Assembly: GCF_032191835.1 (NCBI RefSeq)
Contig: NC_083226.1
Span: forward strand, 9,796,001 to 9,860,000
Reading direction: 5' to 3'
DNA: 64,000 nucleotides
Origin: Heteronotia binoei
Lineage: Eukaryota
Shown: positions 46,901-58,900 of the stretch, piece after piece
How positions within the stretch are numbered: position 1 is the stretch's first letter
How the letters are laid out: each line of letters starts with the position of its first letter
Position numbers: made by a program

Positions 46901-49900
46901 ATGAGGAACAATTCACAAGCACTCTTTGGGTGCGATCTGTCAACCAGTTAGAAGATGAAGAAGGTGGAGATATTGGATTTATATCCCGCCCTCCACTCTG
47001 AAGAGTCTCAGAGCGGCTCACAATCTCCTTTACCTCCCCCCCCCCCACAACAGACACCCTGTGAGGTAGATGAAGATATTGGATTTATATCCCACCCTCC
47101 ACTCCGAAGAGTCTCAGAGCGGCTCACAATCTTCTTTATCTTCCTCCCCCACAACAGACACCCTGTGAAGTGGGTGGGGCTGGAGAGGGCTCTCACAGCA
47201 GCTGGCCTTTCAAGGACAGAGTCTCAGAGCGGCTCACAATCTCCTTTACCTTCCTCCCCCCCAACAGACACCCTGTGAGGTTAAGTCCGCACACTTAACC
47301 ACTACACCAAACTGGCTGTCCTACAGATAGGGTGACCATAATGTCTGAAGGCCAGCCAGGGACACCTTGGGGGAGAAGGGGGGAGGCAGGGGTGCGCGCG
47401 CGAAGCACGCGCAGGGACGCTCCCTCCCTCACTCGCCGCCTTCCCCGCCGGCGCCCGCGGCCCACCGCCTCCGGGGCTGGCTAAACCGGGACCTCTAAAT
47501 GGTCCCGGTATAGCCAGCCCGGGAGGCGGGAATAGGGGGCCAGAACCGGGACATTCCCGGGCGCCCGGGACGGTCTGGCCACCCTACCTACAGATCCACC
47601 TAACGATAACAGGATCCAAACCTGTTATTCATCTTGATCCTGGATTCCTTGGAATTCCATCTTTGCTGCCCAATTCTTCTCTTCCAAGGATAGCATGTCT
47701 CTTATTCTATGTTAGTGTCACCACCACCAAAGGTCCATAACCTCATGGATGACTTGGGGAAAGTCTGGGGTATCCCAGCCAGGGGTGGAATTCTAGCAGG
47801 AGCTCCTTTGCATATTAGGTCGCACACCCCTGACGTAGCCAATCCTCCAAGAGCTTACAAAAAAAGAGCCTTGTAAGCTCTTGGAGGATTGGCAACGTCA
47901 GGGGTGTGTGGCCTAATATGCAAAGGAACTCCTGCTAGAATTCCACCCCTGATCCCAGTCCTACAGCATGCGGTATACTCTATACTCCTATGATTATCCC
48001 AAATATGCTTGCAAATCTTTTAAGGAAAAAAGCAACTACTTCTGTCGCCGGCTGCGCTACTCAGATGTATACGTTCCTGGCCTTTGGAGACACAAACTGT
48101 CTGCTTCTTACAATGATGGGGTTTGACCGATATGTGTCCATATGTAAACCTTTACATTACAGTGCCGCCCACTGCCCAACAAATAGGGTAGGCTTTGGCG
48201 TTCCAGATACCAGGCACATTAGAAAGCAACAAGCCTGCTGCGTGCCTAATTGCCTGTCACTGGGGACAGCAACTGATCAGAGGGGTCTGTCCAACACGGG
48301 GGGGGGGGGGGTCTGCTTCAACACAACTGTTGATGTGATGGAGGGGAGGGATTTCTTCACCATCTTTCTGACTCCTCAAAGAACTTGTTATGTCAGCTCT
48401 CATTGACACTGTAATGGCTAATGAGTGTAACCTCTCAAATGCAATAGAGATAATATCCCAGAGGATTTAGAAACTTGTTTACAGTGTTTCGTGCTTTGTA
48501 AATGCCATATAAAAGCAGGGTATTGTGGCAAAATTCTGTCCTTTGGAATGGAATCCAACAGCTCACCTCCACGTAAGAAATCTGTTTTCTATATTCCTTC
48601 TTGATTCAAAAATGATGTGGCCTCTGTTTCACTAGTGGTTTGTATGAATGTCATGCCAAAAGGCACTCTATACGCTTGGTAGCTGAATACTTCCCTTGCA
48701 TGCAAAAGGCTCCAGCTTCTTTTCCTGGCACCATCAGTTCAGAGAGCTCTTAATTAGTGGGGCTGAGAAGACCTCCACAAACGACTTAGGAGAACTGCTG
48801 CAGCAGTCTGGAATAGACAACATTCAGAGGATGGATTCTTATTCAAAGACAGATTCAGAGAGGATCTCAGGTTAATAGTCCAAAATGGCAGGAGATGATT
48901 TCCTAATGCATTCAGTCTTGGGCCATTCAGGGCTGCCCAGAGCCACTGTGGGCCCCAGGACAGAGATTCCATCTGCCTCCTTTGACCCTGATCCAAAATC
49001 AAAAGCATAACATATTGAATTTCTAGGCTTCCTCATACTGTGACCATTGATGTCTCCATGTGTCCATGGCACCTTTCAGATGTGGGCATGACAACCATGT
49101 CCTCTTAGGATGCAGATGTCTGACCACCAGAGCAAAAGCAGGAAGAGATATCTTCAGACTCCCTTAGTGATATGTCTTCTGGATCAACATCATAAGCTCA
49201 TTCATTTTACTTTTTTTGCCACTGAGTTGGTACCTTATCATCACCATGAATTAATAAGCTGTCACTCCAAAGAGAGGCATTTTGGCTCTACACTTTGGAT
49301 TCTCTGCACCCAAAGGTCTTCAGTGATTGTTTATATCAGGGCATCTGCCTGACCTTCTGTGGTGCCTTCAGTTGTCCCTGATTGTCTAGCACCGCAACTC
49401 ACAACAGAGTTAGTGAGGGAAGGCCAAATGAAACAAAGAAGCCTTCATCCATTGGTGGAAGACAACGATAATACATCCGTCTCCTTGGGGAGGGAGTTCC
49501 AAGGCCCCTTTCTTGGGTTCCCTCTAGGCTTGCTAACCTCCCAGTGGGGCCTGGAGATCTCCCAAAATTGCAACTGATTTCCAGACTACAGAGATCAGCT
49601 CTCCTGGAGGAAATGGGTGCTTCGGAGGGTGGACTCTATGGCATTATACCCCACTGAGGTCCCTCCCCAAACCCCACAACATAATATCATTATATTGGTA
49701 TAATTTTATAACAAACACATGCACCAAAATTTCTGAATTTTAATTCCCCCCCCGCAAACTATGTCTCTATCCCCTTCTGTTGCAGATATATCTAAACATC
49801 TTTATAAATGAATTGAATTAAAAATAGAGGGAATGTTTATTAAATTTGCCGATGATACTAAATTGTGAGGAGTTGTGAATACAGTAGAAGACAGAGACAG

Positions 49901-55900: not shown

Positions 55901-58900
55901 AGGCGGCTGCGAGACGCTTGTGGTCAACTGAGTGTTTGAAGGGCTTGGCTGCACGGCAGGGGGAACACGGGGTGGTTTCCACCCCTCCGGGTCCCCTAGG
56001 CAGTGTAGGGGCCGCCTGGAGTTCGGACAGCACTATTGCACTTTGAGAATGCCCACACTCTGAATACACTCTGCACTTTGAGAACGTCCACGCTCTAAGC
56101 ACACTCTGCACTTTAAGTACTGCAGCGCTTTTACCCAGTACCTTTTTAACTCTAACCTGATCTTCACTGCTAATGTATCAAGATTGAACTGCTGACTGCT
56201 AAATGAATTGTTAATGAAATTTTATTGGTTAATTGATTTGGATTACTGATTAATTGACTGGCTATTTGATGAATCTTATATCTTTGGCAAATTAATTGGG
56301 AAGGGTAATCGATTGGGAGGGGTTTTTTACAATTAAGAAACCAGTAGAATTAATTAAATTTTTAGCTAATGAATTAAAGGGAAGATTATGGGGTGGGGTC
56401 TTTTAGATTAAATTAACTATTAGATAAATTATTAGCAGGGTAGCCTAAATTGAGAATTGATTGATCGGCGTGAGAAGAGAGGGTTGGGGAGTGGAGTAGG
56501 GTGGTGAACTGGGCCTATCTATAACAGGTCTGAGGCTGTGGCGGAGACTGGCAGGGGATGACCAGCCTGGGGATTCCAGTACTCCTGGGGAGGGGAAGGT
56601 ATGACGGTGGGAACAGACAGAATTATAAGGGAAGGAAGGCCGAGACATGATAGTGCTCGGCCCCCTTCCAGCCTGTGTCCCATCCCGACGGTGCCACATT
56701 CTGGCACCATGTTCTAATATTCATCTTAATCCTGGATTCCTTGGAATTCCATCTTTGCTGCCAAATTCCTCTCTTCCAAGGATAGTGTGTCTCTTATCCT
56801 ATGTTAGTGTCACCACCATCAAAGGGTCCATAGCCTCATGGATGACTTGGGGAAAGTCTGGGGTATCCCAGCCAGGGGTGGAATTCTAGCAGGAGCTCCT
56901 TTGCATATTAGGTTGCACACCCCTGATGTAGCTCTCATTGACACTGTAATGGCTAATGAGTGTAACCTCTCAAATACAATAGAGATAATATCCCAGAGGA
57001 TTTAGAAACTTGTTTACAGTGTTTCGTGCTTTGTAAATGCCATATAAAAGAAGGGTATTGTGGCAAAATTCTGTCCTTTGGAATGGAATCCAACAGCTCA
57101 CCTCCACGTAAGAAATCTGTTTTCTATATTCCTTCTTGATTCAAAAATGATGTGGCCTCTGTTTCACTAGTGGTTTGTATGAATGTCATGCCAAAAGGCA
57201 CTCTATATGCTTGGTAGCTGAATACTTCCCTTGCATGCAAAAGGCTCCAGCTTCTTTTCCTGGCACCATCAGTTCAGAGAGCTCTTAATTAGTGGGGCTG
57301 AGAAGACCTCCACAAATGACTTAGGAGAACTGCCGCAGCAGTCTGGAATAGACAACATTCAGAAGATGGATTCTTATTCAAAGACAGATTCAGAGAGGAT
57401 CTCAGGTTAATAGTCCAGAATGGCAGGAGATGATTTCCTAATGCATTCAGTCTTGGGCCATTCAGGGCTGCCCAGAGCCACTGTGGGCCCCAGGACAGAG
57501 ATTCCATCTGCCTCCTTTGACCCTGATCCAAAATCAAAAGCATAACATATTGAATTTCTAGGCTTCCTCATACTGTGACCATTGATGTCTCCATGTGTCC
57601 ATGGCACCTTTCAGATGTGGGCATGACAACCATGTCCTCTTAGGATGCAGATGTCTGACCACCAGAGCAAAAGCAGGAAGAGATATCTTCAGACTCCTTT
57701 AGTGATATGTCTTCTGGATCAACATCATAAGCTCATTCATTTTACTTTTTTGCCACTGAGTTGGTACCTTATCATCACCATGAATTAATAAGCTGTCACT
57801 CCAAAGAGAGGCATTATGATTATAGGATAGAGGAGACTTGCCTGGGTGGTAGTCTGTGTGAAAAGGATGTAGGGGTCTTAGTGGACCATACGCTGAACAT
57901 GAGTCAACAGTGTGATGTGGTGGCTAAAAAGGCAAATGCAATTTTGGGCTGTATCAACAGAAGTATAGTGTCCAGATCACATGAAGTGATGATGGTATCG
58001 CTTTACTCTGCTCTGGTAAGACCTCACCTGGAGTATTGTGTTCAGTTTTGGACACCACATTTTAAGAAGGATATAGACAAGCTGGAACGGGTCCAGAGGA
58101 GGGCAACGAAGATGGTGAGGGGTCTGGAGACCAAGTCCTATGAGGAAAGGCTGAAGGAGCTGGGCATGTTTAGCTAGGAGAGGAGGTTGCTGAGAGGTGA
58201 TATGATCACCATCTTCAAGTACTTGAAGGGTTGTCCTATAGAAGATGGTGTGGAATTGTTTTCTGTGACCCCAGGAGGTAGGACCAGAACCAATGGGTTG
58301 CGATTAAATCAAAAGAGTTTCCGGCTCAACATTAGAAAGAACTTCCTGACAGTCAGAGCAGTTCCTCAGTGGAATAGGCTTCCTCGGGAGGTTTGAGATT
58401 GGGGCCTGTCTGTGGGCAAGGAAATGTTTGCCCCACAGCACTCATGAAAGAGAACCGTCATTATTGCTGATGATGTATTGAATGTTTTTGAGTTTAGAGT
58501 GGTACGTAACCTAGACAACATGATCACTGGACCTAAAAATATCAGCTACACCATCTCAGGCTCATTTAGTTGTTCATTTTCTAACATTGTATATGCCATT
58601 AAATGCCAACAATACCCTTCAGTTCTCTACATAGGGCAAAGTGGTCACACTCTACGCCTAAACGGGCACAAATCTGATATAAAAAAACACAAAACTGAGA
58701 AACCTGTAGAACATTTCAGCCTCCTAGGACATTCAGTTCGGGACCTCGGAGTAGCTGTTTTATTGAAAAAGGAATTTCAGAAAGATTAGAATGAGAGATT
58801 GCTGAATTACAATACTCATGACAATGGAACCCCCCCCCCCGGGGCTTAAAAGAAATACTGGGTTCTTATCTCACTTCGCATGCTAAGTCACTCAGTTCTC

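What the first reader, a model, noticed from the sequence alone, without database searches (positions are those of the whole stretch)
48395..57815. Promoter and exon 1 of OR-e and OR-f are ~99% identical while the receptors are only ~78% identical
48395-49281 versus 56930-57815 shows 8 substitutions and 1 indel. The adjacent shared segment is ~95% identical, the following CR1 pieces roughly 90%, and the proteins differ at about 70 of 314 positions (rough count). The second copy joins by AGC microhomology inside a MITE on the left and enters a CR1 on the right. OR-f therefore appears to have recently acquired OR-e's promoter and first 8 codons (promoter/exon shuffling), which predicts similar choice frequency or zone for two different receptors.
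Basis: partly seen in the sequence, partly recalled or inferred. Interest (0 to 1): 0.68.

Follow-up and report, generated by a model that had tools for sequence, protein, structure and literature searches.

The report
Recently copied promoter between two gecko odorant-receptor genes
Two neighbouring gecko odorant-receptor genes that separated long ago carry an almost identical 887-base promoter and first exon, because that piece was recently copied from one gene to the other, a known kind of event seen here in an unusually clean form.

Summary
Window 48395-49281 and 56930-57815 differ by 8 substitutions and 1 indel in 887 columns. The receptors downstream, OR-e and OR-f, differ at 71 of 314 residues, with dS 0.495.

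The segment is the family's upstream module: a TATA box, a short first exon with a GTAAG donor, and 709 bases of intron 1. It occurs once per gene for OR-b to OR-f. The other nine paralogue pairs are 62-75% identical there.

OR-e and OR-f are old paralogues with separate orthologues in other gecko genera. Recent non-allelic copying therefore fits, and purifying selection does not.

Three structural features show that the OR-f arrangement derives from an OR-e-like one.

The copy sits between older OR-e-derived flanks (6.6% divergence). Identity steps sharply at two non-homologous junctions. I favour a single templated patch over classical gene conversion.

"First 8 codons" is possible but unproven. 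An in-frame upstream ATG exists, yet all five models looked up start in exon 2. The expression prediction is untested.

This is a new example of a known kind.

The parts
48395..49281 (+). OR-e copy of the near-identical core: proximal promoter, exon 1 and the first 709 bases of intron 1
   Evidence: 8 substitutions and 1 indel in 887 columns against 56930-57815
56930..57815 (+). OR-f copy of the core
   Evidence: along OR-f coordinates, 0-2 differences per 100 bases across the core windows against 3-12 in the flank windows
48508..48515 (+). TATA box TATAAAAG of OR-e (OR-f: 57043-57050)
   Evidence: Conserved in OR-b, d, e and f and altered in OR-c. The function is inferred; the transcription start is not mapped.
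48455..48465 (-). O/E-like site of OR-e (OR-f: 56990-57000), 52 bases before the TATA reference column
   Evidence: At most 2 mismatches to the TCCCYNGRGAR core printed in PMC3247239 Table 1, at the same offset in OR-c, d, e and f. The background is about 1 such match per 210 bases, so this is weak evidence.
48548..48572 (+). Upstream ATG to the end of exon 1 in OR-e, 25 nt (OR-f: 57083-57107); identical in OR-e and OR-f
   Evidence: The ATG is present in OR-c, d, e and f and absent in OR-b. The exon start is unknown.
48573..51205 (+). Intron 1 of OR-e, with donor GTAAGA and acceptor ...tttctttgcag
   Evidence: The donor is conserved in OR-c, d, e and f. The acceptor lies 11 nt before the ATG in all six genes.
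51206..52161 (+). OR-e coding exon (ATG at 51217, 314 codons)
   Evidence: Pfam 7tm_4, E = 7e-52; open reading frame
57108..59915 (+). Intron 1 of OR-f
   Evidence: Same donor as OR-e; acceptor
59916..60871 (+). OR-f coding exon (ATG at 59927, 314 codons)
   Evidence: Pfam 7tm_4, E = 2e-49
47626..47839 (+). Left older layer in OR-e: 154 bases found only in OR-e and OR-f within the window, plus the first 60 bases of the MITE; it equals OR-f 56718-56932
   Evidence: 94.9% identity, 10 substitutions and 1 gap in 215 columns; no other copy of the 154-base part in the window
47780..47951 (.). Complete palindromic MITE in OR-e; OR-f keeps only its first 60 bases (56873-56932)
   Evidence: Arms 47780-47860 and 47871-47951, 81 nt, 95% complementary. 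Flanking 8-mers ATCCCAGC and ATCCCAGT are read. A related copy lies at 7299-7456.
47980..48159 (+). Isolated 180-base fragment of an OR-d-like coding sequence upstream of the OR-e promoter; absent from OR-f
   Evidence: 167 of 180 bases identical to OR-d 37445-37624; the frame is open through the DRY region
48231..48390 (+). Ancestral sequence directly left of the OR-e core, homologous to the sequence left of the OR-c block (18695-18850); OR-f has no counterpart
   Evidence: 65.9% over 164 columns, 65.4 bits against a maximum of 22.6 bits in 200 shuffles
49282..50008 (+). 727 bases present in OR-e and absent in OR-f; the right end is the upstream continuation of the LINE reading frame
   Evidence: The OR-e reading frame 49869-50177 aligns to LINE protein P0125 from residue 1252, while the OR-f fragment starts at residue 1300.
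50009..50581 (+). Right older layer in OR-e, the interior of a CR1-like LINE ORF2; it equals OR-f 57817-58392
   Evidence: 92.2% identity. 58-74% protein identity to bird and turtle proteins; most of the 120 listed carry RVT_1 and some carry endonuclease domains. No tool supplied the name CR1.
30564..30777 (+). Homologous promoter and exon-1 block of OR-d (OR-c: 18844-19054; OR-b: 13475-13695)
   Evidence: nhmmer E-values 4e-64, 4e-54 and 7e-54

Best explanation
The 887-base segment is the proximal promoter (TATA box, an O/E-like site, TAAT cores), the short first exon and the start of intron 1 of an OR10R2-like odorant-receptor gene. The window holds a gecko tandem array of six such genes.

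OR-e and OR-f are old paralogues. The OR-f copy of this module is a recent ectopic copy of the OR-e-type module, or of a near-identical copy that I could not see.

I think a single repair or replication event made it. A break or stalled fork in the arm of a palindromic MITE upstream of OR-f switched by a 3-nt AGC microhomology to the start of the OR-e module 8.5 kb away. It copied 887 bases and rejoined inside a LINE in OR-f intron 1. This replaced whatever lay between. The flanks it landed in were themselves an older copy of OR-e upstream DNA.

As a result, OR-f is now transcribed from an OR-e-type core promoter and first exon, and its receptor-coding exon is untouched.

- Shown: the identities, the junctions, the homology of the block across paralogues, the age of the paralogues, and the derived state of the OR-f arrangement.
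- Inferred: promoter activity, splicing, the one-step mechanism, and OR-e itself as donor.

My probabilities are about 0.9 that this is recent ectopic copying of any kind, and about 0.55 that, given copying, it was a junction-bounded patch and not homologous conversion.
For: (1) Identity step. The core has 8/886 substitutions and the flanks 52/787, Fisher p = 1.3e-10. JC distances are 0.009 and 0.069, against a coding dS of 0.495.

(2) The block is ancestral to the array and is not mobile. There are exactly 5 strong nhmmer hits, one upstream of each of OR-b to OR-f; the next best hit has E = 0.65.

(3) No constraint at that level. The other 9 paralogue pairs share 108-130 of 173-174 block positions (62-75%) and 40-72% in the intron part.

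(4) Old paralogues. In a tree of 38 proteins OR-e pairs with a Euleptes protein (SH-aLRT 99). OR-f sits in a 9-member clade with support 100, together with Euleptes, Paroedura and Gekko proteins. OR-e shares a 90%-identity cluster with one Gekko japonicus and one Paroedura picta protein.

(5) The OR-f arrangement is derived.
- OR-e has the whole MITE with both flanking 8-mers; OR-f has only its first 60 bases.
- OR-e keeps OR-c-like sequence left of the core; OR-f does not.
- The OR-e LINE reading frame runs 48 residues upstream of the point where the OR-f fragment starts.

(6) Sharp edges. There are no differences in the outer 46 + 70 bases of the core, where 7.7 would be expected at the flank rate (P = 5e-4). 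Then come 12 differences in the first 100 bases of the right flank.

(7) Junctions. AGC is shared at the left junction. At the right junction there is at most 2 nt of overlap plus one unmatched base.

(8) A second ectopic patch, 180 bases of OR-d-like coding sequence, lies just upstream in OR-e.

(9) No conversion tract in the coding exons. Of 15 pairs the minimum p is 0.033; OR-e/OR-f has p = 0.23.

(10) Gene model. The GTAAG donor is conserved in OR-c, d, e and f. An acceptor lies 11 nt before the ATG in all six genes. One Paroedura picta model carries a 12-residue N-terminal extension that matches the exon-1 reading.
Against: No transcript data were available, so the promoter, transcription start and splice are inferred from sequence alone.

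The O/E-like site has 2 mismatches in OR-e and OR-f, and matches of that quality occur about once per 210 bases in the window.

A second illegitimate event landing exactly inside an older OR-e-derived stretch is a coincidence. Homologous gene conversion explains that placement more naturally, since the two regions already shared homology, have the same orientation and lie 8.5 kb apart.

A 3-nt overlap at one junction is weak evidence on its own. The right junction has no clear microhomology.

The rest of the genome could not be searched, so the donor may be a third copy.

I could not check the assembly with reads.
Confidence: 0.5

Rival explanations
1. Classical non-allelic (interlocus) gene conversion. 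An older copy of OR-e upstream DNA already lay upstream of OR-f. That copy then lost 555 and 727 bases by two deletions. Later, homologous conversion homogenised the whole remaining 887-base block, and the tract stopped at the two heterologies.
For: The flanks show an older OR-e-derived layer, with 52/787 substitutions. This gives same-orientation homology 8.5 kb apart, which is a good substrate. I recall that 887 bases is a usual tract length. Stewart and Lane proposed promoter homogenisation by conversion for V1R genes (PMC1955453, passages read). Conversion also explains why the same place was hit twice.
Against: This needs three events instead of one. The converted tract would have to fill the block almost to both of its edges, because the outer 116 bases show 0 differences where 7.7 are expected if they were unconverted. 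Tracts that extend past the edges should have carried the OR-e-specific 555 and 727 bases into OR-f, and they are not there.
Confidence: 0.33
2. Purifying selection keeps the two upstream regions identical, with no recent transfer.
For: The block contains conserved promoter-like elements. Promoters of old paralogues that stay similar are reported to be enriched for olfactory receptors in mammals (PMC10100218, passages read).
Against: The same block is only 62-75% identical in the other 9 paralogue pairs. The 709 intronic bases are 98.5-100% identical between OR-e and OR-f but 40-72% identical in other pairs. The identity drops within a few bases at structural junctions.
Confidence: 0.02
3. Assembly artefact: a mis-joined or duplicated stretch produced the second copy.
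For: None from the sequence. Short near-identical repeats in tandem gene arrays are places where assemblies can go wrong.
Against: The copies differ at 9 positions spread over the segment. Each is embedded in different flanking sequence with clean junctions. The window has no N.
Confidence: 0.04
4. The core is, or rides on, a mobile element that inserted upstream of both genes.
For: The region is rich in transposable elements: a MITE, a LINE, Ty3/gypsy-like reading frames and satellite arrays.
Against: The window holds only the five copies that sit one per gene upstream of OR-b to OR-f. The old copies are 64-70% identical, as expected for descent with the array. I saw no terminal repeats or target duplications at the core ends. 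The left end in OR-e continues into ancestral sequence.
Confidence: 0.01

Closest known systems
Homogenised promoter regions of mouse V1R vomeronasal receptor paralogues (Stewart and Lane 2007, PMC1955453; passages read)
   Same: A chemoreceptor family with one-receptor-per-neuron expression. The promoter regions are over 500 bases long and much more alike between paralogues than expected. The authors suggest gene conversion, so that the genes 'compete equally well' for common factors.
   Different: In that work the case is statistical, across subfamilies, and no junctions were resolved. Here a single pair of odorant receptors in a gecko shows base-level breakpoints, two age layers, and coding exons that are clearly not involved.
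Old mammalian paralogues with unusually conserved promoters, enriched for olfactory receptors (Fraimovitch and Hagai 2023, PMC10100218; passages read)
   Same: Promoter similarity outlasts or exceeds what the age of the duplication predicts. Non-allelic gene conversion is named there as a possible cause of promoter similarity between recent duplicates.
   Different: That is a genome-wide survey in human and mouse without a mechanism for any one locus. Here the event is dated relative to its flanks and to the coding sequence, and the direction can be inferred.
Mammalian class II odorant-receptor promoters (Young et al. 2011, PMC3247239, passages and Table 1 rows read; review PMC12547500, passages read)
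   Same: A TATA box near the start site, an O/E-type site and homeodomain TAAT cores within about 200 bases, and a short upstream exon spliced to a single coding exon.
   Different: The O/E-like site here departs from the printed consensus by 1-2 bases. No start site is mapped. The animal is a squamate, and I found no promoter study for squamates in the searches I ran.
   Same: A nearby donor in cis, junctions with 0-3 nt of overlap, a block copied without its neighbours, and one breakpoint in a palindrome.
   Different: The templated block is long (887 bases) and is exactly a functional promoter and exon module. It lands inside an older copy of the same donor region.

Membership tests
Vertebrate odorant receptor (Pfam 7tm_4), OR10R2-like | 7tm_4 domain over the whole protein and an intact reading frame of about 310 codons | tested here: met
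   OR-e E = 7e-52 and OR-f E = 2e-49, residues 31-305. Six intact frames of 312-314 codons with dN/dS 0.17-0.40. The nearest named proteins are 'olfactory receptor 10R2-like' of geckos.
Odorant-receptor proximal promoter plus upstream exon | TATA box shortly before the start site | tested here: met
   TATAAAAG at 48508-48515 and 57043-57050. It is conserved in OR-b, d, e and f.
Odorant-receptor proximal promoter plus upstream exon | O/E (Olf/Ebf) site and homeodomain sites within about 200 bases | tested here: inconclusive
   An O/E-like 11-mer with 1-2 mismatches lies at the same offset (-52) in OR-c, d, e and f, but the chance rate is about 1 per 210 bases. TAAT cores lie at -95, -88 and -56 in OR-e and OR-f.
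Odorant-receptor proximal promoter plus upstream exon | Mapped transcription start, and observed splicing of the upstream exon to the coding exon | not testable with these tools
   No transcript data were available. Indirect support comes from the conserved GTAAG donor and cag acceptor and from one Paroedura picta model with the matching 12-residue extension.
Coding first exon ('first 8 codons') | Upstream ATG in frame with the receptor and used for translation | tested here: inconclusive
   In frame by arithmetic (25 + 11 = 36 nt) with no stop in OR-c, d, e and f. OR-a and OR-b have a TAA in the leader, and OR-b lacks the ATG. The five window proteins looked up stand as 312/314-residue models that start in exon 2. 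1 of 120 listed homologues has the extension. The ATG lies only 40 nt after the start of the TATA box. I did not search the joined model.
Non-allelic (interlocus) gene conversion | A tract of much higher identity than the flanking homologous sequence, conflicting with the gene tree | tested here: met
   0.9% against 6.6% substitutions. In the tree OR-e and OR-f are not sisters.
Non-allelic (interlocus) gene conversion | Tract ends lie inside collinear homology | tested here: not met
   Both ends coincide with structural junctions. Relative to OR-e, OR-f lacks 555 and 727 bases at those junctions.
Microhomology-bounded templated patch | Short overlaps at both junctions, a donor nearby, and sharp identity steps | tested here: inconclusive
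   The left junction has a 3-nt AGC overlap. The right junction has 0-2 nt of overlap plus one unmatched base. The donor-like copy lies 8.5 kb upstream. The steps are sharp. The earlier state of OR-f is unknown.
Mobile element carrying the core | Terminal repeats or target duplications, and dispersed copies | tested here: not met
   Five copies, one per gene. I read no terminal structure at the core ends.
MITE (hAT-like; the superfamily is recalled) | Short, non-coding, terminal inverted repeats, target-site duplication, more than one copy | tested here: met
   81-nt arms, 95% complementary. Flanking 8-mers match at 7 of 8 positions. A second copy lies at 7299-7456. The superfamily was not tested.
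CR1-like LINE | ORF2 similarity to non-LTR retrotransposon proteins with an endonuclease and a reverse transcriptase | tested here: met
   58-74% identity over 86-100% of the 121 residues to bird and turtle proteins. Most of the 120 listed carry PF00078 and some also carry PF03372/PF14529. Pfam alone found nothing in the short pieces. The label CR1 is recalled.

The most novel reading that the evidence does not exclude
A natural promoter swap. A single templated repair event gave OR-f, an anciently diverged receptor, the core promoter and first exon of OR-e. Exon 1 is identical in the two genes, and the 113 bases before the TATA box differ at one position, with a second difference one base after it. 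The receptor proteins differ at 71 of 314 residues.

If the proximal promoter sets the probability and zone of receptor choice in squamates as it does in mouse transgenes, the two genes should be chosen alike, and unlike OR-c and OR-d. That would make the pair a ready-made test of promoter-driven choice outside mammals.

If the upstream ATG is used, both receptors would also share a 12-residue N-terminal extension with an extra N-glycosylation motif.
Probability: 0.3. Interest if true: 0.55.

Novelty: new member of a known kind. Interest (0 to 1): 0.4.

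Why it matters
How each olfactory neuron picks one receptor gene depends partly on short promoter sequences next to each gene. Most evidence for this comes from mouse transgenes.

Here evolution has placed nearly the same core promoter and first exon in front of two receptors that have been separate since before several gecko genera split. The coding exons were left alone.

This shows that regulatory modules in receptor arrays can be exchanged independently of the receptors. 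It gives a dated, base-resolved example of the promoter homogenisation proposed for vomeronasal receptors. It also offers a pair of genes in which promoter effects on choice frequency and zone could be measured without transgenesis.

The event is one locus in one genome, and the general idea is already in print, so the value is illustrative and not conceptual.

Tried and rejected
1. A relict 'original' OR-f promoter. Sensitive BLAST and an nhmmer profile of the block found only one block per gene for OR-b to OR-f. There was none between 52162 and 56929 and none for OR-a in the 5 kb available.

2. Conversion tracts inside the coding exons. In a run-length permutation test on 339 variable sites over 15 pairs, none survives correction. 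The minimum p is 0.033 (OR-d/OR-f), and OR-e/OR-f has p = 0.23.

3. Faster CpG decay in the flanks as the cause of the contrast. Only 2 of 10 and 7 of 42 flank substitutions are in CpG context, so I rejected this.

4. Independent transposable-element insertions as the source of flank similarity. I rejected this for two reasons. The left flank includes 154 bases found only in OR-e and OR-f, plus the same MITE insertion site. The LINE pieces are closer to each other (92%) than to any other copy (64-88%).

5. Structured RNA. Rfam found 0 matches in 46000-61000.

6. Pfam on the short LINE pieces and on a possible Penelope-like reading frame gave 0 families. The LINE identity came instead.

8. A search with residues 1-40 of the Paroedura model found only that model itself, from 1 candidate. 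I therefore have no further annotated examples of the N-terminal extension.

9. Literature searches did not turn up a described case of an odorant-receptor promoter exchanged between old paralogues. Papers in subscription journals and supplementary files were not visible.

No eukaryotic genome collection was on hand.

11. I did not search the joined exon 1 + exon 2 model. I worked out frame continuity from coordinates only.

Full report
**What the window is.** The window has no N. It carries six intact odorant-receptor reading frames on the + strand:

| Gene | Coding sequence |
|---|---|
| OR-a | 5012-5950 |
| OR-b | 14834-15772 |
| OR-c | 22351-23295 (from the conserved ATG) |
| OR-d | 37230-38174 |
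| OR-e | 51217-52161 |
| OR-f | 59927-60871 |

OR-e and OR-f match Pfam 7tm_4 at E = 7e-52 and 2e-49. The nearest named proteins are 'olfactory receptor 10R2-like' of geckos.

The exact OR-e protein lies on one contig of 186,718,757 bases. That is the contig length listed for a Heteronotia binoei protein. The window is therefore from a gekkonid lizard, probably that species; this is an inference. Nothing in it looks human.

**The observation.** It is correct to the base.
- 48395-49281 versus 56930-57815 has 8 substitutions and one 1-base indel in 887 columns. BLAST gives 98.77% over 895 columns.
- The left shared segment, 47626-47839 versus 56718-56932, is 94.9% identical, with 10 substitutions and 1 gap in 215 columns.
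- The right shared segment, 50009-50581 versus 57817-58392, is 92.2% identical, with 42 substitutions and 3 gap columns in 576.
- The receptors differ at 71 of 314 residues, the coding DNA is 82.7% identical, and dS is 0.495.
- Core versus flanks is 8/886 against 52/787 substitutions, Fisher p = 1.3e-10. The two flanks do not differ from each other (p = 0.20).

**What the segment is.** The first 210 or so bases of the core are a block that occurs exactly once upstream of each of OR-b, c, d, e and f. nhmmer E-values run from 4e-64 to 7e-54. The next best hit has E = 0.65, and six such weak hits were ignored. OR-a has no block in its 5 kb of available upstream sequence.

The alignment of the five copies shows these features:
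- A TATA box, TATAAAAG, at 48508-48515 in OR-e and 57043-57050 in OR-f.
- An ATG 40 nt after the start of the TATA box (48548 and 57083).
- A CAC|GTAAG donor 25 nt after that ATG (48573 and 57108). The donor is conserved in OR-c, d, e and f.

OR-b has lost both the ATG and the GT.

All six coding exons have a polypyrimidine-cag acceptor 11 nt before the main ATG. The gene model is therefore a short upstream exon, an intron of 2633 nt in OR-e and 2808 nt in OR-f, and the coding exon.

An O/E-like 11-mer sits 52 bases before the TATA reference column in OR-c, d, e and f. It has 1-2 mismatches to the consensus printed by Young et al. (PMC3247239, Table 1 rows read). Matches of that quality occur about once per 210 bases in the window, so this is weak evidence. 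TAAT cores lie at -95, -88 and -56 in OR-e and OR-f.

The overall layout matches what is described for mammalian receptor promoters (passages of PMC3247239 and PMC12547500 read). Promoter activity itself is inferred, because I had no transcript data.

**'First 8 codons'.** From the upstream ATG to the donor is 25 nt, and the leader of exon 2 is 11 nt. The total of 36 nt keeps the upstream ATG in frame with the main ATG. Read in that frame, the exon-2 leader has no stop in OR-c, d, e and f but has a TAA in OR-a and OR-b (sequences).

Evidence bearing on whether the upstream ATG is used:
- One Paroedura picta model of 326 residues, P0013, begins with a 12-residue extension. Its first eight residues resemble the exon-1 reading of OR-c and OR-d.
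- It is the only one of the 120 listed homologues with that length and start.
- A search with its first 40 residues found only the model itself.
- The five window proteins looked up stand in the collection as 312- or 314-residue models that start in exon 2.
- The ATG is so close to the TATA box that the leader would be very short.

The exon is real enough as a model, but whether it codes is open.

**Selection or recent copying.** The other nine paralogue pairs share only 108-130 of 173-174 positions in the promoter and exon-1 block (62-75%), and 40-72% in the alignable intron part. OR-e and OR-f share 171 of 173 and 269 of 273.

OR-e and OR-f are not young duplicates. I built a tree of 38 proteins: the six from the window plus 32 hand-picked reptile, bird and alligator hits out of the 120 listed. 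I left out the mammalian and most bird hits, the partial sequences and the unnamed ones.
- OR-e pairs with a Euleptes protein (SH-aLRT 99).
- OR-f sits in a clade of nine with support 100, together with Euleptes, Paroedura and Gekko proteins.
- OR-e shares a 90%-identity cluster with one Gekko japonicus and one Paroedura picta protein.

The receptor split therefore predates the divergence of those genera. The core divergence (JC 0.009) is about 54 times smaller than dS. Constraint cannot explain 99% identity over 709 intronic bases, so the segment was copied recently.

**Direction.** Three structural facts make the OR-f arrangement a derivative of an OR-e-like one.
1. OR-e has a complete palindromic MITE. 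Its arms are 47780-47860 and 47871-47951, 95% complementary, with flanking 8-mers ATCCCAGC and ATCCCAGT. OR-f has the same left flank and only the first 60 bases of the element, followed directly by the core.
2. The 160 bases directly left of the OR-e core (48231-48390) are homologous to the sequence left of the OR-c block. The match is 65.9% over 164 columns and scores 65.4 bits, against a maximum of 22.6 bits in 200 shuffles. OR-f has nothing comparable.
3. On the right, the OR-e LINE reading frame is continuous across the point where the OR-f fragment begins. The OR-e fragment aligns to a LINE ORF2 protein from residue 1252, and the OR-f fragment from residue 1300.

The LINE is CR1-like in the following sense. 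It is 58-74% identical to bird and turtle proteins; most of the 120 listed carry a reverse-transcriptase domain, and some also carry endonuclease domains. No tool supplied the name CR1.

**Two layers.** The flanks are themselves OR-e-derived and younger than the gene split.
- The left flank contains 154 bases found nowhere else in the window, plus the same MITE insertion site.
- The LINE pieces of OR-e and OR-f are 92% identical. Against the other LINE copies they are 64-88% identical.

At about 6.6% divergence, then, a stretch of OR-e upstream DNA (at least 47626-50581) came to lie upstream of OR-f. At about 0.9% divergence the core was renewed. Relative to OR-e, OR-f lacks two stretches:
- 47840-48394: the rest of the MITE, a 180-base OR-d-like coding fragment, and the ancestral upstream sequence.
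- 49282-50008.

**Mechanism.** Along OR-f coordinates the number of differences per 100 bases runs as follows:

| Region | Differences per 100-base window |
|---|---|
| Left flank | 6, 4 |
| Core windows | 2, 1, 1, 1, 2, 1, 0, 1, 1 |
| Right flank | 12, 4, 3, 10, 7, 9 |

The outer 46 and 70 bases of the core have no differences. At the flank rate 7.7 would be expected, P = 5e-4.

Both edges are non-homologous junctions with respect to OR-e. The left one has a 3-nt AGC overlap. The right one has at most 2 nt of overlap plus one unmatched base.

Two readings fit.
- **A single junction-bounded templated patch.** A break or stalled fork in the MITE arm switches template to the OR-e module, copies 887 bases, and rejoins in the LINE. 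I favour this because it needs one event and explains why the identity step falls exactly on both junctions.
- **Homologous gene conversion of a block already delimited by two earlier deletions.** This explains better why the same place was hit twice. It requires the tract to fill the block almost exactly.

I put recent ectopic copying of either kind at about 0.9, and the patch at about 0.55 of that. The 180-base OR-d-like fragment at 47980-48159 is 167 of 180 identical to OR-d. It shows that small ectopic patches do occur in this array.

The coding exons show no conversion tracts. Of 15 pairs the minimum p is 0.033, and OR-e/OR-f has p = 0.23.

**Other explanations.**
- A mobile element is excluded by the one-per-gene distribution and the lack of terminal structure.
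- Faster CpG decay in the flanks is excluded, because only 9 of 52 flank substitutions are in CpG context.
- Rfam finds nothing in 46000-61000.
- Mis-assembly cannot be tested here. It is unlikely given nine differences spread over the segment and clean, distinct flanks.

**What is known.**
- Stewart and Lane proposed that V1R promoter regions of more than 500 bases are homogenised by gene conversion, so that paralogues compete equally for factors (PMC1955453, passages read).
- Fraimovitch and Hagai list olfactory receptors among old paralogues with unusually conserved promoters, and they name non-allelic conversion as a possible cause of promoter similarity between recent duplicates (PMC10100218, passages read).
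- My three literature searches found no base-resolved case for an odorant-receptor promoter. Subscription-journal papers and supplements were not visible.

I therefore file this as a new member of a known kind.

The prediction is reasonable in the light of mouse transgene work, where about 300 bases of promoter suffice for receptor-like expression (review PMC12547500, passage read). It remains untested. Only about 113 bases before the TATA box are shared. Further upstream the two genes differ, and distant enhancers are unknown.

**What stayed unchecked.** Orthologous loci, other copies in the same genome, reads, transcripts, and the joined two-exon protein.

Noticed in passing
window 47980-48159: An isolated 180-base piece of odorant-receptor coding sequence (TM2 to the DRY region, frame open) lies 235 bases upstream of the OR-e core. 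167 of 180 bases are identical to OR-d 37445-37624, against about 80% identity to the other receptors. It looks like a separate ectopic patch.
   Followed up: partly
window 13475-13695 and 1-5011: The upstream block of OR-b has lost the upstream ATG and has GG instead of the GT donor. OR-a has no block within its 5 kb of upstream sequence in the window. OR-a and OR-b share only about 150 bases of upstream homology, although they are the youngest pair (dS 0.19).
   Followed up: partly
window 31184-33040, 35308-36299, 46968-47316, 61236-61651, 62738-63287: Arrays of a 104-110-base tandem repeat occur in both orientations. The two arrays in intron 1 of OR-d help stretch it to about 6.5 kb. OR-e-like intron sequence resumes right after the first array (33088-33129).
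   Followed up: no
window 8929-12932 (-) and 44200-46122 (-): Two Ty3/gypsy-like retroelement remnants with long open frames. 10449-12209 carries RVT_1 and RNase H domains. 44200-45264 carries an integrase core and an SH3_Tf2-1 domain. The other reading frames were not tested.
   Followed up: partly
window 58448-58789 (+): A 113-codon open frame in OR-f intron 1 lies just after the point where the OR-e/OR-f LINE homology ends. To me it resembles the GIY-YIG end of Penelope-like elements. Pfam gave no match, so the label is recalled only.
   Followed up: partly
window 4522-4608, 14338-14666, 36500-36589, 50009-50767: Pieces of the same LINE family lie in the same orientation a few hundred bases before the coding exon of OR-a, b, d and e, at 78-87% identity. 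The insertion seems to predate the expansion of the array.
   Followed up: partly
window 22276-22350: The OR-c open frame runs 25 codons upstream of the conserved ATG, through the splice acceptor. This is a by-product of mechanical ORF calling and not a longer protein. The model in the collection has 314 residues.
   Followed up: yes
protein P0013 (Paroedura picta), not in the window: The only listed homologue with a 12-residue N-terminal extension matching the exon-1 reading of the window genes. This suggests that the two-exon structure, with its in-frame upstream ATG, is shared across gekkonid genera.
   Followed up: partly
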